From: the human T2T-CHM13v2.0 reference genome, Homo sapiens
Direction: 5' to 3' (one strand)
Assembly: GCF_009914755.1 (NCBI RefSeq)
Contig: NC_060928.1
DNA: 64,000 bases
Shown one piece after another: positions 19,164 to 31,381 of this stretch. The position numbers were made by a program, and so were the translations under genes. Position 1 is the stretch's first letter. Every line of letters starts with the position of its first letter. Below the pieces are notes generated by a model. The model was not told the origin of the DNA. It was given only the letters and a program-made list of their open reading frames with translations, and made no database searches.

Positions 19164-20131
19164 TGTGGGGAAAAGCAAGAGAGATCAGATTGTTACTGTG
19201 TCTGTGTAGAAAGAAGTAGACATAGGAGACTCCATTTTGTTATGTACTAAGAAAAATTCTTCTGCCTTGAGATTCTGTTAATCTATGACCTTACCCCCAA
19301 CCCCGTGCTCTCTGAAACATGTGCTGTGTCAACTCAGAGTTGAATGGATTAAGGGTGGTGCAAGATGTGCTTTGTTAAACAGATGCTTGAGGGCAGCATT
19401 CTCCTTAAGAGTCATCACCACTCCCTAATCTCAAGTACCCAGGGACACAAAAACTGTGGAAGGCCGCAGGGACCTCTGCCTAGGAAAGCCAGGTATTGTC
19501 CAAGGTTTCTCCCCATGTGATAGTCTGAAATATGGCCTCATGGGAAGGGAAAGACCTGACCGTCCCCCAGCCCGACACCCGTAAAGGGTCTGTGCTGAGG
19601 AGGATTAGTAAAAGAGGAAGGAATGCCTCTTGCAGTTGAGACAAGAGGAAGGCATCTGTCTCCTGCCTGTCCCTGGGCAATGGAATGTCTCGGTATAAAA
19701 CCCGATTGTATGCTCCATCTACTGAGATAGGGAAAAACCGCCTTAGGGCTGGAGGTGGGACCTGCGGGCAGCAATACTGCTTTGTAAAGCATTGAGATAT
19801 TTATGTGTATGCATATCTAAAAGCACAGCACTTAATCCTTTACATTGTCTATGATGCAAAGACCTTTGTTCACGTGTTTGTCTGCTGACCCTCTCCCCAC
19901 AATTGTCTTGTGACCCTGACACATCCCCCTCTTTGAGAAACACCCACAGATGATCAATAAATACTAAGGGAACTCAGAGGCTGGCGGGATCCTCCATATG
20001 CTGAACGCTGGTTCCCCGGGTCCCCTTATTTCTTTCTCTATACTTTGTCTCTGTGTCTTTTTCTTTTCCAAATCTCTCGTCCCACCTTACGAGAAACACC
20101 CACAGGTGTGTAGGGGCAACCCACCCCTACA
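19164..20131 (+). promoter_or_regulatory. HML-2 LTR (LTR5_Hs type), 968 bp
   Basis: TG...CA termini and the canonical 968-bp length. TATAAAA at 19694, ATGCAAAG (OCT4-type motif) at 19854, AATAAA at 19956. Many CpGs are retained. Confidence 0.96.
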
Positions 20132-20133
20132 TC

Positions 20134-20151
20134 TGGTGCCCAACGTGGAGG
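20134..20151 (+). other. Primer-binding site, tRNA-Lys
   Basis: TGGTGCCCAACGTGGAGG lies 2 nt after the LTR end. Confidence 0.92.
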
Positions 20152-20236
20152 CTTTTCTCTAGGGTGAAGGTACGCTCGAGCGTGGTCATTGAGGACAAGT
20201 CGACGAGAGATCCCGAGTACGTCTACAGTCAGCCTT

Positions 20237-20245
20237 ACGGTAAGC
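20237..20245 (+). promoter_or_regulatory. HML-2 major splice donor
   Basis: ACG|GTAAGC in the leader just upstream of the gag ATG, the expected position. Confidence 0.75.
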
Positions 20246-20274
20246 TTGTGCGCTCGGAAGAAGCTAGGGTGATA

Positions 20275-21302
20275 ATGGGGCAAACTAAAAGTAAAATTAA
20301 AAGTAAATATGCCTCTTATCTCAGCTTTATTAAAATTCTTTTAAAAAGAGGGGGAGTTAAAGTATCTACAAAAAATCTAATCAAGCCATTTCAAACAGAA
20401 GAAGATAGCGTTTCAGTTTCTGATGCCCCTGGAAGCTGTATAATAGATTGTAATGAAAAGACAAGGAAAAAAATCCCAGAAAGAAACGGAAAGTTTACAT
20501 TGCGAATATGTAGCAGAGCCGGTAATGGCTCAGTCAACGCAAAATGTTGACTATAATCAATTACAGGAGGTGATATATCCTGAAACGTTAAAATTAGAAG
20601 GAAAAGGTCCAGAATTAGTGGGGCCATCAGAGTCTAAACCACGAGGGCCAAGTCCTCTTCCAGCAGGTCAGGTGCCCGTAACATTACAACCTCAAAAGCA
20701 GGTTAAAGAAAATAAGACCCAACCGCCAGTAGCTTATCAATACTGGCCGCCGGCTGAACTTCAGTATCGGCCACCCCTAGAAAGTCAGTATGGATATCCA
20801 GGAATGCCCCCAGCACCACAGGGCAGGGCGCCATACCCTCAGCCGCCCACTAGGAGACTTAATCCTACGGCACCACCTAGTAGACAGGGTAGTGAATTAC
20901 ATGAAATTATTGATAAATCAAGAAAGGAAGGAGATACTGAGGCATGGCAATTCCCAGTAACGTTAGAACCGATGCCACCTGGAGAAGGAGCCCAAGAGGG
21001 AGAGCCTCCCACAGTTGAGGCCAGATACAAGTCTTTTTCGATAAAAATGCTAAAAGATATGAAAGAGGGAGTAAAACAGTATGGACCCAACTCCCCTTAT
21101 ATGAGGACATTATTAGATTCCATTGCTCATGGACATAGACTCATTCCTTATGATTGGGAGATTCTGGCAAAATCGTCTCTCTTACCCTCTCAATTTTTAC
21201 AATTTAAGACTTGGTGGATTGATGGGGTACAAGAACAGGTCCGAAGAAATAGGGCTGCCAATCCTCCAGTTAACATAGATGCAGATCAACTATTAGGAAT
21301 AG
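20275..21302 (+). pseudogene. gag: HML-2 gag, truncated in capsid, with an in-frame matrix deletion and a +1 frameshift
   Basis: MGQTKSKIKSKYASYLSF... at 20275. NLIK is joined directly to PFQTEED. The A7 run at 20467-20473 shifts the frame. The Gag frame continues to ...IDADQLLGI. Confidence 0.95.
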
Positions 21303-21388
21303 AACAAAATGGAGTCTCCTATGTCTACTTCTTTCTACACAGACACAGTAACAATCTGATCTCTCTTGCTTTTCCCCACATTATATGA
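20453..21388 (+). CDS. gag: 311-aa open frame: Gag SP1/p15 plus capsid N-terminal part, fused to an antisense-U3-encoded tail (translation unproven)
   Basis: ORF track. Contains the PTAP late-domain motif and the CA start PVTLEPMPPG. The C-terminal EQNGVSYVYFFLHRHSNNLISLAFPHII is mostly from the inverted LTR piece. Confidence 0.45.
   Translation: MKRQGKKSQKETESLHCEYVAEPVMAQSTQNVDYNQLQEVIYPETLKLEGKGPELVGPSESKPRGPSPLPAGQVPVTLQPQKQVKENKTQPPVAYQYWPPAELQYRPPLESQYGYPGMPPAPQGRAPYPQPPTRRLNPTAPPSRQGSELHEIIDKSRKEGDTEAWQFPVTLEPMPPGEGAQEGEPPTVEARYKSFSIKMLKDMKEGVKQYGPNSPYMRTLLDSIAHGHRLIPYDWEILAKSSLLPSQFLQFKTWWIDGVQEQVRRNRAANPPVNIDADQLLGIEQNGVSYVYFFLHRHSNNLISLAFPHII
21303..21380 (-). repeat. Inverted copy of LTR nt 1-78 (first copy)
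   Basis: Exact reverse complement of 19164-19241. Confidence 0.97.
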
Positions 21389-21586
21389 GGACATTATTAG
21401 ATTCCATTGCTCATGGACATAGACTCATTCCTTATGATTGGGAGATTCTGGCAAAATCGTCTCTCTTACCCTCTCAATTTTTACAATTTAAGACTTGGTG
21501 GATTGATGGGGTACAAGAACAGGTCCGAAGAAATAGGGCTGCCAATCCTCCAGTTAACATAGATGCAGATCAACTATTAGGAATAG

Positions 21587-21664
21587 AACAAAATGGAGTC
21601 TCCTATGTCTACTTCTTTCTACACAGACACAGTAACAATCTGATCTCTCTTGCTTTTCCCCACA
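21587..21664 (-). repeat. Inverted copy of LTR nt 1-78 (second copy, forms the element end)
   Basis: Exact reverse complement of 19164-19241. Abuts the TSD. Confidence 0.97.
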
Positions 21665-22454: not shown

Positions 22455-22535
22455 TGAAGTCACTATAATTTGTGGATTTCTGACTCTCTAATATTCCTTT
22501 TAATTAGTCCAATGTATTGTATTTTTAACTCCTAT

Positions 22536-23212
22536 TGAGAGGTGAAGCCAGCTGGACTTCTGGTTCAGGTGGGGACTTGGAGAACTTTTCTGTCTAGCTA
22601 AAGGATTGTAAACGCACCAATCAGCACTCTGTAAAAACGTACCAATCAGCGCTCTGTGTCTAGCTAGAGGATTGTAAATGCAGCAATCAATACTCTGTAA
22701 CAACACCCCAATCAGCACTCTGTAAAATGGATCAATAAGTGGAATGTGGGCAGGGCCAAATAAGGGAATAAAAGCTGGCCACCCCAGCCAGCAGTGGCAA
22801 CCCTTACATGCTGTGGAAGCTTTGTTCTTTCTCTCTTCACAATAAATCTTGCTGCTGCTCACTCTTTGGGTCTGCACTACCTTTATGAGCTGTAACACTC
22901 ACTGCGAAGGTCTACGGCTTCACTCCTGAAGTCAGTGAGACCATGAACTCACTGGGAGGAACAAACAACTCTGGACATGCCACCTTTAAGAGCTGTAACA
23001 CTCACTGTGAAAGTCTGCGGCTTCACTCCTGAAGTCAGCAAGACCATGAACCCACTGGAAGGAAGAAACTCCAGACACATCTGAACATCTAAAGGAACAA
23101 ACTCCAGACACACCATCTTTAAGAACTGTAACACTCACCGCGAGGATCCACAGCTTCATTCTTGAAGTCAGCAAGACCAAGAACCCACCGGAAGGAATAA
23201 ATTCCAGACACA
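22536..23212 (+). promoter_or_regulatory. 5' LTR12-type LTR with tandem CCAAT repeats
   Basis: TGAGAGGTGAAGCCAGCTGG...CCAGACACA. Repeated CACCAATCAGCACTCTG units, AATAAAA at ~22767, AATAAA at 22841, and repeated GTAACACTCAC...GAAGTCAG units in U5. Confidence 0.93.
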
Positions 23213-23215
23213 CTT

Positions 23216-23233
23216 TGGCGACCATGAAGGGAC
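23216..23233 (+). other. Primer-binding site, tRNA-Arg
   Basis: TGGCGACCATGAAGGGAC directly follows the 5' LTR and is near-complementary to a tRNA-Arg 3' end. Confidence 0.85.
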
Positions 23234-24180
23234 TGTCACCAAGCAGTGAGTACCATCAGACCCCTTTCACTTGCTATTCTGTCCTATTTTTCCTTAGAAT
23301 TTGGGGGCTAAATACCAGGCACCTGTTTGCCAGTTAAAAGCGACTAGCACGGCCACCAGACTAAAGACATGGGTGTCAGGCTTTCTGGGAAAGAGCTCTC
23401 TAACAACCCCTGACTCTTCAGAGTTGGGAGCATTAGTTTGCCGGGAACCAGCTTCTGCTTTCCCTGTACTTCTGGGCTGAGCCAAGGGTAGACAGAGAGG
23501 AAAGCCATTCAGCTCCGGGGTCCCAACAACAACTTGGGTGACCCTGTGACCATGAGTGGAACTCTCAAAGTCATGTCACCCAAGCGAGACTCGCTCATCT
23601 ATCCTATCTATCCTGACCCTTGCCTCCTGGGTCCTAATGCCTGTCAGACAAACTTCCTCTCACCTCTCTTCTCTGAGGCTAGTCCCGCTTCCGAAAACCA
23701 CTCCCTGTTTCTGGTGCTTTTCTACTTTCTCCTATAAGAATGATTTCTAGTATAAACTCCAGGACTCTATTCCCTTCATTAGACACCCGGGCTCACTAAT
23801 CACAAAGACATAATTTTTGCCCAAAGTCCCATCGGGGTGGTGGGGACTATCTTATCCGGAATTTTAGGATCCCTCCTCAGACTAGCAGGCCTAACAAAAG
23901 CTATTCCTGGAGCTAGGATACAGGGAGCTTCAGAAATGGTATCCTTCCTATTCAAGTGAGGACAAAAGGTGTCACTCTTCCAACCCTGGAGATCCCTTCC
24001 CTCCCTCAGGGTATGGCTGTCCACTTCATTTTTGGGGTATAACATCTTTATAGGACAGAGGTAAGGTCCCAATACTAACAGGAGAATGCTTAGGACTCTA
24101 AAAGTTTTTTGAGAATGCATCGGTAAGGGCCACTAAATCTGACCTTCCTCAGTCCTCCTTGTGGTCTAGGAGGAAAACTA

Positions 24181-24415
24181 GTGTTTCTGCTGCTGCGTTG
24201 ATGAGTGCAACTCTTCTGATCAGCAGGGTCCAGGGACCATTGCAGGTTCTTAGGCAAGAGGTGTTCCTGCTGCTGTGTTGGTGAGTGCAACTATTCCAAT
24301 CAGCAGGGTCCAGGGACTGTTGTGGGTTCTTGGGTAAGAGGTGTTTCTGCTGCTGCGTTGGTGAGCACAACTATTCTGATCAGTAGGGTCCAGGGACCAT
24401 TGAGGGTTCTTGGGT
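24181..24415 (+). repeat. Three 80-bp tandem repeats in the ERV9 leader
   Basis: Units start GTGTTYCTGCTGCTG at 24181, 24261 and 24341. Each contains ATCAGYAGGGTCCAGGGAC. Confidence 0.9.
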
Positions 24416-24462
24416 GGGGGAGAAACAAACAAACCAAAACTGTGGGCTGTTTTGTCTTTCAG

Positions 24463-25923
24463 ATGGGAAACACTCAGACACCAACAAGCTCACCCTTGAA
24501 ATGCATCCTAAGCCATTGGGACCAATTTGACCCACAAACCCTGAAAAAGAGGCAGCTCAATTTTTTTCTGCACTATGGCTTGGCCCTGATATTCTCTCTC
24601 TGATGGGGAGAAATGGCCACCTGAGAGGAGTATAAATTACAATACTATCCTGCAGCTTGACCTTTTCTGTAAGAGGGAAGGCAAATGCAGTGAAATACCT
24701 TATGTCCAAGCTCTCTTTTCATTGAAGAAGAATACACAACTATGCAAAGCTTGCAATTTACAACCCACAGGAGGACCTCTCAGCTTACCCCCATATCCTA
24801 GCCTCCTTATAGATCCCCTTCCTATTAATGATAAGCCTCCTCTAATCTCCCCCACCCAGAAGGAAACAAGCAAAGAAATCTCCAAAGGACCACAAAAACC
24901 CCTGGGCTATCAGTTTTGTCCACTTCAAGCTGTAGGGGGAGGGGAGTTTGGCCTAACCAGGGTACATGTCCCCTTCTCCTTCTCTGATTTAAAGCAGATC
25001 AAGGCAGACCTGGGGAAGTTTTCAGAAGATCCTGATAGTTATATAGATGTCCTACATGGTCTAGGGCAAAACTTCGATCTCACTTGGAGAGATGTCATGC
25101 TACTGTTAGATCAAACCCTGGCCTTTAATGAAAAGAATGTAGCTTTAGCTGCAGCCCGAGAGTTTGGAGATACCTGGTATCTTAGTCAAGTAAATGATAG
25201 AATGACAGCCAAAGAAAGGGACAAATTCCCTACTGGTCAGCAAGCCATCCTCAGTATGGATTCCCACTGGGACCTCGACTCAGATCATGGGGACTGGAGT
25301 CGCAAACATCTGTTGACCTGTGTTCTAGAAGGACTAAGAATAATTAGGGAAAAGGCCATGAATTAGTCAATGATGACCACCATAATTCAGGGAAAGAAAG
25401 AAAATCCTTCTGCCTTCCTCAAGTGGCTATGGGAGGCCTTAAGAAAACATACTCCCCTGTCACCCAACTCACTTGAGGGTCAATTGATTCTAAAAGATAA
25501 GTTTATTACCCAATGAGCCACAGACATCAGGAGAAATCTCCAAAAGCGAGCCCTGGGCCCTGAACAAAATCTGGAGGCATTATTAAACCTGGCAACCTCG
25601 GTGATCTATAATAAGGACCAACAGGAACAGGCCCAGAAGGAAAAGTGAGATCAGAGAAAGGCGCAGCCTTAGTCATGGCCCTCAGACAAAAAAACCTTGG
25701 TGGTTCAAAGAGGACAGAAAATGGAGCAGGCCAATCACCTAATGGGGACTGTTATCAGTGTGATTTGCAAGGACACTTTAAAAAAGTTTGTCCAGTGAGA
25801 AACAAGCTGCCTCCTCGCCCATGTCCACTATGCTGAGGCAATCACTGGAAGGTGCACTGCCCCAGAGGACAAAGTTTCTCTGGGCCAGAAGCCCCCAACC
25901 AGATGATCCAACAACAGGACTGA
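24463..25923 (+). pseudogene. gag: ERV9 gag with multiple stops and frameshifts
   Basis: MGNTQ... start, PPY late motif, CA segment [25 protein letters not shown], zinc knuckle CYQCDLQGHFKKVC. Confidence 0.92.
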
Positions 25924-26156
25924 GGGTGCCCGGGGAAAGTGCCAGCTTATGTCATCACCCTCACTGAGCCCCAGGTACATATAACCATTGAGGGCCAGGA
26001 AATTGACTTCCTCCTGGACACTGGTGCAGCTTTTTCAGTGTTAATCTCCTGTCCCAGACAGCTGTCCTCAAGGTCCGTTACCATCTGAGGAATCCTGGGA
26101 CATCCTGTATCCAGGTATTTCTCTTACCTCCTCAGTTGTAATTGGGAGACTTTGCT
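25924..26156 (+). pseudogene. pro: ERV9 protease, N-terminal part
   Basis: FLLDTGA active-site motif at 26008-26028. Confidence 0.88.
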
Positions 26157-26340
26157 ACAGATAGTAAGTATGCTTATCTAATCCTACATGCCCATGCTGC
26201 AATATGGAAAGGAAGGGAGTCCCTAACCTCTGGGGGAACCCCCATTAAATACCACAAGGAAATCATGGAGTTCTTGCATGCAGTGCAAAAACCCAAGGAG
26301 GTGGCAGTCTTACACTGCTGAAGCCATCAAAAAGGGGAAG
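26157..26340 (+). pseudogene. pol: pol RNase H fragment (RT deleted), followed by a GA-rich tract to ~26520
   Basis: TDSKYAYLILHAHAAIWK directly follows the truncated protease. Confidence 0.8.
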
Positions 26341-27129
26341 GAGAGAGGAGAACAGCAGCATAAGCAGCTGGCAGAGGCAGGGAAAGACCAGCAGAAAGGA
26401 AAGAGAGAAAGAGAAAGTCAGACAGAGAGAGGAAGAGACAGAGACAAAGAGGGAGTCAGAAAGAGAGAGACAAAGAAGAAGTCAAAGAGAAAGAGAGATG
26501 GAAGTAGTAAAGAAAAAAACCGTGTATCCTATTCCTTTAAAAGCCATGGTAAGTTTAAAACCTATAATTGATAACTGAAGGTCTTCTCTGTGACCCTGTA
26601 ACACTCCAATACCACCTTGTTGACAGTGTAAACAAGGGCATAGCCCGAAAGCACTGAGGCCACTGACAACCAGTAGCCTTCCTATCAAAAATCCTTAACC
26701 AAGCAGGTTTCCTAACAAGGGACCTAAATCTTAAGGTCCAACCAGACATAGGAGGAGCTCCCTTCAGGACAGGATGATAGATGGTTCCTCCCAGGCGATT
26801 AAGGAAAAAGACACAATGGATATTCAGTAAGTGATAAGGAAACTCTTACAGAAGCAGAGTTAGGAAAATTGCCTAATAATTGTCTGCTCAAACATGCAAG
26901 CTGTCTGGAATCAGCTAAACCTTAAAGTACTTACAGAATCAGGAAGGAGCCATCTATACCAATTCTAAGTTAATATAGACTGAATGAGGTTTTATTAATA
27001 GCAAAGAAAAATTAAAATCCCAGACTTACAAGGTTTTCAACTACAGTAAAGTTTGCTAAAAGTTAACAGTGTAACATGTATTATCCTACTACCACACACT
27101 CTCAAAGGATTTCTTAGACAGTTTACAAG

Positions 27130-27672
27130 AAATGATGAAATCTATCCTTACTCTACAATCCCACATAGACTCTTTGGCAGCAGTGACTCTCCAAAATTGC
27201 CAAGGCCTAGACCTCCTCACTGCTGAGAAAGGAGGACTCTGCACCTTCTTAGGGGAAAAGTGTTGTTTTTACACTAAACAGTCAGGGATAGTACGAGATG
27301 CCACCCGGCATTTACAGGAAAAGGCTTCTGAAATCAGACAACACCTTTCAAACTCTTATACCAACCTCTGGAGTTAGGCAACATGGCTTCTCCCCTTTCT
27401 AGGTCCCGTGACAGCTGTCTTGCTATTACTTGCCTTTGGGCCCTGTATTTTTAACCTCCTTGTCAAATTTGTTTCCTCTAGGATTGAGGCCATCAAGCTA
27501 TAGATGATCTTACAAATGGAACTCCAAATGAGCTCAACCAACAACTTCTACCGAGGACCCCTGGATCGACCCACTTGCTGTTTGGTTGGCCTAGAGGGTT
27601 CCCCTCTGGAGGACACTACCACTGCAGGGCCCTTTCTTCACCTCTATCCAGTAGGAAGTAGCTAGAGTGGTC
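27130..27672 (+). pseudogene. env: ERV9 env transmembrane subunit remnant
   Basis: Immunosuppressive-domain motif LQNCQGLDLLTAEKGGL plus CX6CC (CTFLGEKCC). Premature stop at 27375-27377. Confidence 0.92.
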
Positions 27673-27710
27673 ATTGCCCAATTCCTAACAGCAATTGGGG
27701 TGTCCTGTTT

Positions 27711-27720
27711 AGAGGGGGGA
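27711..27720 (+). other. Polypurine tract
   Basis: AGAGGGGGGA immediately before the 3' LTR. Confidence 0.85.
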
Positions 27721-27721
27721 T

Positions 27722-28429
27722 TGAGAGGTGAAGCCAGCTGGACTTCTGGTTCAGGTGGTGACTTGGAGAACTTTTCTGTCTAGCTAAAGGATTGTAAATG
27801 CACCAATCAGCACTCTGTAAAAATGCACCAATCAGCACTCTGTGTCTAGCTAAAGATTGTAAATGCACCAGTTAGCACTCTGTAAAAACGCACCAATCAT
27901 CACTCTGTAAAATGGACCAATCAGCACTCTGTAAAATGGATCAATCAGTGGGACATGGGAGGGGCCAATAAGGGAATAAAAGCTGGCTACCCCAGCCAGC
28001 AGTGGCAACCCTCTCGGGTCTCTTCCATGCTGTGGAATATTTGTTCTTTTGCTCTTCACAATAAATCTTGCTGCTGCTCACTCTTTGGGTCCGCACTACC
28101 TTTATGAGCTGTAACACTCACTAGGAAAGTCTGTGGCTTTACTCTTGAAGTCAGCAAGACCACGAACCCACCAGGAGGAACAAACAACTCTGGACGCACC
28201 ACCTTTAAAAACTGTAACACTCACTGCAAAGGTCTGCGGCTTCACTCCTGAAGTCAGCAAGACCATGAACCCACCAGAAGGAAGAAACTCCAGACACACG
28301 TGAACATCTGAAGGAACAAACTACAGATACACTATTTAAGAATGGTAACACTCACTGCGAGGGTCCACGGCTTCATTCTTGAAGTCAGTGAGACCAAGAA
28401 CCCACTGGAAGGAATAAATTCCAGACACA
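27722..28429 (+). promoter_or_regulatory. 3' LTR12-type LTR
   Basis: Colinear with 22536-23212, with one additional CCAAT unit. Confidence 0.93.
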
Positions 28430-28432
28430 TTT

Positions 28433-28450
28433 TGGCAATCCAGATGGGAC
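28433..28450 (+). other. Second PBS-like (tRNA-Arg 3'-end complement) after the 3' LTR
   Basis: TGGCAATCCAGATGGGAC sits at the same 3-nt spacing from the LTR end as the 5' PBS. Confidence 0.75.
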
Positions 28451-31381
28451 ACACTACTAGTTATTAAGAAAATTCAAAACAGTAGTCAATATTTTCCAAA
28501 GAACATTTCTTTAAATTCATCAATCTAATTAAAACATGTTTTTCCCCAAATGTGACACCAGTTTTGGGGTTATATTTAAAAGTAGAATTTCATTATCCTC
28601 ATTTATAAAATATAAATATCCTCATTTATAAAATATATCTGTCCAAAGAAGGTAAAACTTTCTCTCACCTCTTCATCCTGGCACATTTCTCATTTTTTTT
28701 AAACTCTCAGTCAATAGTTTTTCCTTGACACACACACAATATCATGTTAGATATATATATAATATATCATATAATATATAAACAATATATAATATGTAAA
28801 CAATACAATACATGTAATATTATATATTATTTATAAATAAAATAGCATATATAGCAACCAAATTTCTTGAGAAGGTTTGCAAATGTTTAGGCTTTCTCAA
28901 AGCCACTATTTCCAAAGTGAATTTCTCAATCAAACTTCAGTGTATGGCATATAACTCACTCTATTTCGTGATGAATTACTACCATAAACATTGATTTTGA
29001 GGTTCAGCCATTGATGCCCATTCAGGCTTCTGGGAACTTAATGGAGGGTCACTATGGTATCTAGGAAGCAAGAGAGTAAGAGGGTGAAAGCATGATTTGT
29101 GAGCAGAGCTCTCAGACTCTATTTTTCTAACCAATCACATCACCACTTTGTTAGGGTACTTTCTGTTAGTATGCTGTATCCGGAACTCCTTTTATCCACC
29201 CTAGAGTTTCAAAATATGAGACAAGAAAACAGGGATCAGGGACTGATTTTAGTGTCTAATATTGATTGATTTCCTCTTTCAGTTCTTTTCAAAGAACTCC
29301 CTGTACCTTTCTAAAGGATAAATATATATAAAACACTTACCAGACAGCTCTCCATTTTATCTGGGGTTGCACTTCAAAATCTGGCAAGAATGGTAATTCC
29401 TCCATCAAGAGTCCATTTCAGAAATCAATAGTTAAACAGCTACACAGGGGTCCTGTATTTTGTGAAAAGACCAAATCTAGAGTCTGATTTCTAGAAACAC
29501 ACCCAGAAATTAAGGCGATTATGTTTTATTCTGTTTTCCTCATTCATAACATTTTGCTTTTCCATAGAAGTGCTACTTTGTAACTTTCTTTAACTTTATC
29601 ACATATCATTTCAAATTAATTTATTTTCTTATTTTATTTCTACTGCTTCAGCCCCTTTTTGCTTTCCCTAGAAGTGGCTTCTCAGGTGCCAAGAATGTAA
29701 TAAGCCTCCAATAATATTAATTGAATAAAGGAATAAACCACCCATGCTTCTGACAATAAACTGAAGTCTAATTATTCTACCATAAAACTAGACTTTGTAA
29801 AACAAGTCCATTACTTCTTCTGAATATCCTTTGTTCAAAATATTCTTAATAATGTTATTTCAAGTATGTTACCTAGCAATTATATTTAGATTCATAACTT
29901 CTTGAGCCCATTTTACAATAACAGAGACACATTTTTATTCATAATTATTTTGCATATTCATTTGACATGTTTGATATTTTTAAAGTTCTTTATATTTTCA
30001 CATAAATAATTGCGAGACTGCATTGTGTTTTATTGGAAAATATAATGTATTCTATTCATTCTCTGGATTATTTTTATCAAGGACAAAACAATCTTTAAAA
30101 ATGTACTTGATAAATTGGGTTAGTTTGTCTGTAATAACCTAAATAGTAATTCTAACTCAGTACTATTGTTTGTGTGATCAGTACTATTGATTCATTAACA
30201 TACTAAATCTTAAATTATTAGAGAAATCTAATGCAGTTTGAAAGATATGATAGACTAGACTGAAGTAGATACAGTGAGGAAAATAAGGGATTATTACATG
30301 GAAGAGTATTTGAGCTATTTTTGTTGGAAAGAGGTATGCATAGCATACTTGAAGCTGATAGAGAAAGCCAGCAACAAAATTGTAAATGGCTTAAGTGTGT
30401 GTTTGAATTGATAAAATTCTCAAAAAAAATTTGTAAAAAAAAAAAAAAACGATGCTCACAAGCAAAATGAAAATAATTGTTGAAAAGGTATGTTGCACAT
30501 CACCATCTCTAAATAAATATATTCAATTTGTATTTTTGTCTTATCATGGGGAATGCCCACATAGAAAACAAAAAAGAAAACTAATGGACAAGTGGACAGA
30601 CTTAGAAACAATTTTAGAATAGCCTACAGTGGGGAAGAAACTGGAGAATCCAGACTAAGAATAAAGACACAGCTAAAAAGTTAGAACAAGATATCCAAGG
30701 TACCAGACAATTTTTAGTGAGAATGCAAGGAATTATAATCAATATAGCTCTAGAAATTAGCACAAAGGTATCTGAGTCTAAGGTTGCAGGGATGGTAATG
30801 CTCACAGACTACATAGAAAAGCACATGCGTTCTTGGAATTGGTAGCATCACATCATAGCATGTCAGTTCCAGGGGAGGCACATATGTAAGAGCAAAATGA
30901 GTCTCAGTCTACAAAGAGGTTTTAACTATTATTACAGATGCAGACTAGAAATCCAGATACAGAAACTAAGAGAATAATAGAGTCATTTAATCTGGGACTT
31001 CCCAGAAATCTGGAATAGAAAGTTTACAGCTGGAAAATCTGTAATCTCTTATGCAAGATAAAGAAAGAGGTAAGCATCAGTGATATCTGGAGTTTACTTC
31101 TAAAAACTTGTAAGAACCAATGGTTAAATTTTCAGGAATTTGGAAACTAGTTGTTAAGCATGGCATTTTGTGAAACCCAGATAAAGATGAACTCAGGAGA
31201 GGACACCTAACCTCTCTGAACTTCATGTAATGCATATTGTTTTATTTTTACTTTTACTTTGGGTGTTTTGCTGTAATAAACGTTGGCTATGAGTATAACC
31301 AGAGTTATACAGATGTGAGTCCTCCTAGATATTTCCCCAACTTTCAGATGGTTGTGGGATTTCTGAAACAGACTTGAATAT

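What the first reader, a model, noticed from the sequence alone, without database searches (positions are those of the whole stretch)
28421..28457. tRNA primer fossil after the ERV9 3' LTR, from a different tRNA-Arg than the 5' PBS
Seen: the 3' LTR (…CCAGACACA) is not followed by host DNA. It is followed by TTT-TGGCAATCCAGATGGGAC-ACA and only then the candidate TSD CTAC (vs CTAT at left). The 18-mer has PBS length and spacing but a different core (CCAGATGGGAC) from the 5' PBS (CATGAAGGGAC). From recalled human tRNA sequences these match the 3' ends of tRNA-Arg(CCG)-type and tRNA-Arg(TCG)-type isoacceptors respectively. Established: plus-strand synthesis copies 18 nt of the primer tRNA up to m1A58, and this copy is normally absent from the 3' end. 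Inference: the primer was not removed, its copy was retained, and integrase used a new CA end. This would record the primer actually used, mismatched to the genomic PBS.
Basis: partly seen in the sequence, partly recalled or inferred. Interest (0 to 1): 0.7.

Follow-up and report, generated by a model that had tools for sequence, protein, structure and literature searches.

The report
Primer-tRNA stamps on ancient retrovirus ends
This ancient human endogenous retrovirus (ERV9) ends in an extra 24-base piece that matches the tail of a host tRNA, and 17 other copies carry the same kind of piece, likely a fossil record of which tRNAs once primed the virus's copying.

Summary
The 3' LTR ends CCAGACACA-TTT-18mer-ACA, then CTAC (left site CTAT). 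The 18-mer matches a tRNA-Arg(CCG) gene end 16/18; the 5' PBS matches other Arg(CCG)/Arg(TCG) genes 17/18.

It is not a one-off. Genome searches found five solo LTRs with the same trailer, each with the target duplication directly after ACA (three 4/4, two 3/4). They also found 12 5' LTRs carrying two or three PBS units joined by ACA-spacer, matching several Arg tRNAs and Lys-CTT.

The ACA is a re-copy of the LTR end, not tRNA, so plain primer retention does not explain it. The unit is likely a primer copy re-joined to the LTR terminus during plus-strand transfer.

How it reached the 3' end is open. Inheritance from a tandem-PBS parent primed at the distal site is favoured (about 0.5).

I found no description in ten library searches, but the two main ERV9 papers were not read. 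New variant of known aberrant strand transfer.

The parts
22532..22535 (+). Left target-site copy CTAT
   Evidence: Sequence directly before the LTR's TG
22536..23212 (+). 5' LTR, LTR12-type, TG...CA, long U5 variant (GAAGGAA before the end)
   Evidence: About 90.8% identical to the 3' LTR, 609 of 671 aligned bases; family name LTR12 is recalled
23213..23233 (+). Spacer CTT plus single 5' PBS (type Y, CATGAA core)
   Evidence: 17/18 to Arg-CCG and Arg-TCG gene ends plus CCA; followed by leader like 38 of 38 other Y-type sites read
23234..27710 (+). Internal region, about 4.5 kb, deleted and broken by stops; env remnant at 27075-27374
   Evidence: Only short open frames; PF00429 TLV_coat E 4.8e-28; the other five pieces gave no retroviral family
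27711..27720 (+). Polypurine tract
   Evidence: Sequence; the PPT-LTR junction pattern has 186 genome matches, control 0
27722..28429 (+). 3' LTR core, ending at the ordinary CACA
28430..28432 (+). Spacer TTT, normally lost from the 3' end at integration
   Evidence: Same spacer as at most 5' PBS sites
28433..28450 (+). 18-base PBS copy, type X (CCAGAT core)
   Evidence: 16/18 to the Arg-CCG gene at C17:68.9 Mb (L036) plus CCA; also 16/18 to an Arg-CCT gene
28451..28453 (+). ACA: second copy of the LTR terminus, giving the new CA end
   Evidence: Not tRNA read-through; the same ACA joins units in 12 5' arrays and ends 5 solo trailers, one of them as GCA
28454..28457 (+). Right target-site copy CTAC (3/4 to CTAT)

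Best explanation
The 3' LTR carries an extra spacer-PBS-ACA unit inside its integrated end; the unit is likely a copy of a primer tRNA re-joined to the LTR terminus during plus-strand transfer, and it likely reached the 3' end because a parent genome with tandem PBS sites was primed at the downstream one. Step 1 (inferred): plus-strand strong-stop DNA ends in GGGAC after copying 18 bases of the primer. It re-anneals by GGAC to the U5 end (GGAC-ACA-TTT) instead of PBS to PBS, giving LTR-TTT-PBS(primer)-ACA-TTT-PBS(genome) at the 5' LTR. Such arrays are shown at 12 loci. Step 2 (inferred): array genomes were copied again, since arrays hold up to three different units. Step 3 (inferred): priming at the distal PBS turns the proximal unit into part of U5, so the 3' LTR ends PBS-ACA and integrase cuts at the new CA. 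The new end is shown by six target duplications. Step 4 (inferred, needed for this locus only): the 5' array collapsed to one unit across its direct repeat of up to 18 bases, leaving the Y core.
For: Trailers and arrays use the same unit and the same joint. The order X then Y, the parent this locus needs, is seen in L067, L076 and L084 and, more decayed, in L068 and L071. LTR-proximal units are X in 13 of 18, Lys-CTT in 3 and Y-like in 2, while single sites are about 42 X to 104 Y (Fisher p 1.7e-5; loci not independent). So the proximal unit is enriched for one tRNA, as a primer copy would be. L084 holds three units matching three different tRNA ends, which needs more than one round. Solo-LTR trailers need only standard steps once an array exists. 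LTR pair identity (90.8%) equals that of array proviruses (89.3-91.3%), so this is one insertion. The first two bases after the PBS vary in 83 single sites while the third is T in 80, which fits an error-prone junction there.
Against: None of the 9 located 3' ends of array proviruses has a trailer (8 clean ends with target duplication, L062 short by about 7 bases). The only full provirus with a trailer, this one, has a single 5' PBS, so a collapse must be assumed. The three triple arrays with a known 3' end were not primed distally. No two-unit trailer was found. The LTR tree is star-like and ties no trailer to an array lineage (trailers 6 changes of 6, arrays 9 against 9.2 shuffled). No orthologue or empty site could be read.
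Confidence: 0.5

Rival explanations
1. Same-round retention with slip-back. A type X tRNA primed a type Y genome and stayed on the minus strand. The finished plus strand copied it again at the right end, slipped back by GGAC to copy ACA-TTT, and integrase cut at the new CA; repair kept the looped strand. The 5' PBS heteroduplex resolved to Y.
For: It predicts exactly this locus (X trailer, single Y PBS) with no collapse, and agrees with 0 of 9 array proviruses having a trailer. Partial PBS (2-15 nt) at 3' HIV-1 junctions is reported in Mre11-deficient cells (PMC2797772, passages). Three ERV9 proviruses have a single Lys-CTT PBS followed by ERV9 leader, which points to mismatched priming.
Against: It needs several rare steps together (retention through transfer, slip-back, integrase acting ten bases from a 24-base loop, loop kept); my rough product falls below the observed rate (inference). 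The HIV junctions were partial and the three read at both ends had short or missing duplications, whereas all six trailers are whole 18-mers with ACA and 4-base sites.
Confidence: 0.35
2. Exchange after integration: a provirus with a 5' array recombined between its LTRs, pairing the unit's GGAC-ACA with the 3' LTR end. This leaves a solo LTR with a trailer, or moves the unit from the 5' to the 3' LTR.
For: Arrays outnumber trailers among full proviruses, 12 to 1, and 5 of 6 trailers are solo LTRs, which are recombination products. A swap gives this locus's X at 3' and Y at 5'.
Against: Only about 7 bases of homology lie at the distal end, and a full provirus would need a double exchange. Not tested.
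Confidence: 0.09
3. Slip at the start of minus-strand synthesis copied a genomic PBS into U5, or the trailer is the stump of a second, deleted tandem provirus, or it is host sequence.
For: The target duplication here is only 3/4 and the empty site is unseen.
Against: A minus-strand slip predicts array and trailer together, seen in 0 of 9. Six independent loci end at the same base with target duplications, about 6e-8 by chance.
Confidence: 0.06

Closest known systems
PBS remnants at 3' provirus-host junctions of HIV-1 and MLV (Sakurai 2009, PMC2797772; passages read)
   Same: PBS-derived bases beyond the 3' LTR end.
   Different: There they are partial (2-15 nt for HIV-1), in repair-deficient cells, with micro-homology and abnormal duplications. 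Here the whole 18-mer is followed by a re-made CA end and a 4-base duplication, at six loci in the human reference genome.
Aberrant second-strand transfer with tRNA read-through in HIV-1 proviruses (PMC12657518; passages read)
   Same: Plus-strand strong-stop DNA carrying a tRNA copy lands out of register.
   Different: There it reads past m1A58 and lands downstream, deleting sequence. Here it stops at 18 bases and lands just upstream, adding a unit.
Alternative tRNA priming and PBS variation (HIV/SIV, PMC6450007, abstract; HERV-W PBS types, PMC5016936, passages; mouse ERVs, PMC7472051, passages)
   Same: The primer copy can replace the genomic PBS, and more than one tRNA type occurs per family.
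   Different: Those are single-site replacements. Here old and new sites sit side by side in arrays of two or three.
Dual-PBS HIV-1 genomes from culture of PBS mutants (recalled; not found)
   Same: Two PBS sites in tandem after U5.
   Different: Laboratory mutants. I recall no natural endogenous arrays or 3' trailers; unverified.

Membership tests
ERV9/HERV9 provirus with LTR12-type LTRs | Paired TG...CA LTRs, PBS, PPT and retroviral env | tested here: met
ERV9/HERV9 provirus with LTR12-type LTRs | Best match to the curated HERV9/LTR12 models and a subfamily call | not testable with these tools
tRNA-derived primer-binding site | 18 bases complementary to a host tRNA 3' end including CCA | tested here: met
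   16/18 to Arg-CCG gene L036; many sister units 17-18/18
tRNA-derived primer-binding site | Anticodon differs from that of the 5' PBS tRNA | tested here: inconclusive
   The 5' PBS fits Arg-CCG and Arg-TCG alike; the trailer fits Arg-CCG or Arg-CCT. The tRNA gene differs; the anticodon may not
Integrase-made end | Terminal CA followed by a 4-base target duplication | tested here: met
   3/4 here; 4/4 in three and 3/4 in two solo LTRs
Integrase-made end | Empty site lacks the unit | not testable with these tools
   No primate relatives are held (header)
Simple retained-primer junction | PBS, whole or partial, or tRNA read-through joined directly to host DNA | tested here: not met
   ACA intervenes at all six trailers (one GCA); read-through would give TCGAACC; 83 of 83 single sites go on into leader
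Offspring of a distally primed tandem-PBS parent | 5' array and 3' trailer in the same provirus | tested here: not met
   The window has a single 5' PBS; 0 of 9 located array 3' ends have a trailer. A collapse has to be assumed

The most novel reading that the evidence does not exclude
Older ERV9 kept a running log of its primers: each misaligned plus-strand transfer pushed a copy of the tRNA just used in next to the LTR, so arrays read newest to oldest and name at least six tRNA ends (five Arg types and Lys-CTT). This locus is the one full provirus where the primer of a single infection (X) and the genome's own PBS (Y) are both preserved, at opposite ends.
Probability: 0.35. Interest if true: 0.65.

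Novelty: new variant of a known kind. Interest (0 to 1): 0.5.

Why it matters
Primer choice of extinct retroviruses is normally inferred from one PBS, which cannot separate the primer from the template. Arrays and trailers keep both, so primer promiscuity, isodecoder preference and PBS switching (Arg to Lys) become countable in genomes. They also indicate that integrase accepted a re-made end 24 bases out, and that LTR ends and target duplications are likely mis-annotated at such loci. No effect on a host gene is suggested: none is annotated in the window.

Tried and rejected
Rfam scan of 28300-28700: four weak matches, all below gathering score, nothing relevant.

Nine extra candidates from the looser search (59 matches, control 8) were read: two were further arrays (L084, L085), two were 5' PBS sites joined to internal sequence by deletion (L086, L089), two belong to a different LTR (L087, L088) and three look like chance (L090-92). 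L075 and L078 carry a PBS inside a longer U5 duplication and were left out of the array and trailer counts.

A general any-tRNA tandem pattern (39 matches, control 5) showed no further tRNA type by its matched strings; its other hits were not fetched. The LTR-end count (3384) includes an internal U5 repeat and is only an upper bound.

The tree of 42 LTR 3' halves was unresolved; the bootstrap had not settled; L084, L085 and all Y-type single loci other than the window's were not in it. The 3' LTR of L076 was not found in the stretches read; those of L070 and L085 were not looked for. ARAGORN miscalled two intron-type genes (L096 as Pyl, L099 as Leu); the L096 loop reads CT-TCT-A, which fits Arg-TCT.

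Recombination between two unrelated proviruses was set aside because LTR identity is ordinary for this group.

Full report
Observation. The window holds a 5.9-kb deleted provirus: 5' LTR 22536-23212, PBS 23216-23233, broken internal region with an env remnant (PF00429, E 4.8e-28), PPT, and 3' LTR 27722-28429. The name ERV9/LTR12 is recalled; no repeat library was held. After the 3' LTR's CACA come TTT, an 18-mer, ACA and CTAC; CTAT precedes the 5' LTR. The LTRs are 90.8% identical (609 of 671). By the formula in PMC5016936 (passages) that is roughly 35 million years, uncorrected for CpG decay. It fits ERV9 entry over 30 million years ago (PMC8767690, passages).

Which tRNAs. I searched the genome for tRNA gene ends and named them with ARAGORN. 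The trailer (type X) is 16/18 to the one Arg-CCG gene found with that end (L036), one change being CpG-type. It is also 16/18 to an Arg-CCT gene without that excuse, and 13/18 to the type of the 5' PBS. The 5' PBS (type Y) is 17/18 to both Arg-CCG and Arg-TCG genes. So the two tRNAs differ, but the anticodon may be the same. Reading on past 18 bases of the tRNA would give TCGAACC; the window has ACA. The LTR ends (G/A)GAC-ACA and the PBS ends GGAC, so the ACA is the LTR terminus written again.

It recurs. The pattern LTR end-spacer-18mer-ACA gave 18 matches, control 1. They are: this locus; five solo LTRs with host DNA and the target duplication right after the ACA (L066, L072, L074 4/4; L065, L073 3/4); ten 5' LTRs with tandem PBS units followed by leader; and two PBS copies inside a longer U5 duplication, left out below. 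A looser search added two arrays among nine candidates read. Chance for six sites to reach 3/4 is about 6e-8. All 17 arrays and trailers whose U5 end was visible have the long U5 variant (L069 decayed), whereas 12 of 25 single X-type 5' LTRs have the short one. L085's first unit has no visible LTR end in the stretch read.

What the units are. Arrays read XXX (L061, L069), X-Y (L067; more decayed L068, L071), X-Y-Y (L076), X-Y-ArgCCT (L084), X-ArgTCT-like (L077), Lys-Y (L062), Lys-X (L063), Y-like-ArgTCG (L070) and a decayed triple (L085). Trailers are five X and one Lys-like. Genome-wide there are 54 X and 109 Y matches. All 42 single X sites and the 38 exact Y sites read go on into leader, as do three single Lys-CTT sites; the inexact Y matches were not read. 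LTR-proximal units are X:Y-like 13:2 against about 42:104 at single sites (p 1.7e-5). The 104 assumes that unread matches are single, and the loci are not independent.

The other ends. I located the 3' end for 9 of 12 array proviruses. Eight end at the ordinary position with a target duplication (seven 4/4, L069 3/4; L063 reads AA for CA); L062 is about 7 bases short; none has a trailer. L076's was not found; L070 and L085 were not sought. The LTR tree is star-like and clusters neither arrays nor trailers, so repeated origin is allowed but not shown.

Mechanism. Established: strong-stop plus DNA copies 18 primer bases and then transfers by PBS pairing. Inferred: its GGGAC end sometimes pairs with the U5 GGAC instead and copies ACA-TTT, which inserts the primer copy next to the LTR. 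The enrichment of one tRNA at that position, and the variable first two bases after the PBS in 83 single sites, fit this. For the 3' trailer I favour inheritance (0.5): an array genome primed at its distal PBS makes the proximal unit part of U5, which explains solo trailers by standard steps. L084's three different units imply that array genomes were copied again. Against it, this locus needs a 5' collapse and no array-plus-trailer provirus was seen. Same-round retention with slip-back (0.35) fits this locus directly but needs more rare steps. These odds are my judgement, not a computation. I put about 0.9 on the shared core: a primer-derived unit inside an integrase-made end.

Known work. Partial PBS at 3' junctions is reported for HIV-1 and MLV in repair-deficient cells (PMC2797772, passages). 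tRNA read-through with misplaced transfer is reported in HIV-1 reservoirs (PMC12657518, passages), and rare alternative priming in vivo (PMC6450007, abstract). PBS variety is described for HERV-W and mouse ERVs (PMC7472051, passages). Term searches within PMC3185550 and PMC1084362 showed nothing on dual PBS; dual-PBS HIV-1 mutants are recalled only. Ten library searches listed no description of ERV9 PBS arrays or trailers; most hits were seen as listings only. The main ERV9 papers were not read: Lopez-Sanchez 2005 was not held and Costas and Naveira 2000 was seen only as a reference. No supplements or repeat-database notes were seen, so prior mention is possible.

Verdict. A real, recurrent fossil of aberrant plus-strand transfer in older ERV9; a new variant of a known kind; interest 0.5. 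The wider find, tandem primer arrays naming several tRNAs, is worth more than the single locus.

Noticed in passing
window 19165-21664: A separate LTR with a Lys-type PBS (about 20135-20152) and a truncated gag, which I recognise from recall as HERV-K(HML-2). It ends in a perfect 284-base tandem duplication at 21097-21664, either recent or an assembly artefact.
   Followed up: no
L161-L163 (C3:49256598, C3:51883637, C9:98308029): ERV9-type 5' ends with a single Lys-CTT PBS followed by ordinary ERV9 leader: a complete primer switch.
   Followed up: partly
L075 and L078: A Y-type PBS sits inside a duplication of about 120-130 bases of U5: likely the same misaligned transfer landing further upstream.
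   Followed up: no
L086 and L089: The 5' PBS is fused directly to internal sequence through short shared words, removing the leader.
   Followed up: no
83 single PBS sites, L001-L030 and L106-L163: The first two bases after the PBS vary (TA 41, TT 12, AA 10, CA 10, CT 5, others 5) while the third is T in 80.
   Followed up: partly
L076, about 2230-2283: The triple-PBS provirus breaks off after about 700 bases of leader into an inverted LTR start; no 3' LTR was found in the next stretch read.
   Followed up: partly
L087 and L088: The X-type PBS also follows a different, non-LTR12 end, so another family seems to use the same tRNA.
   Followed up: no
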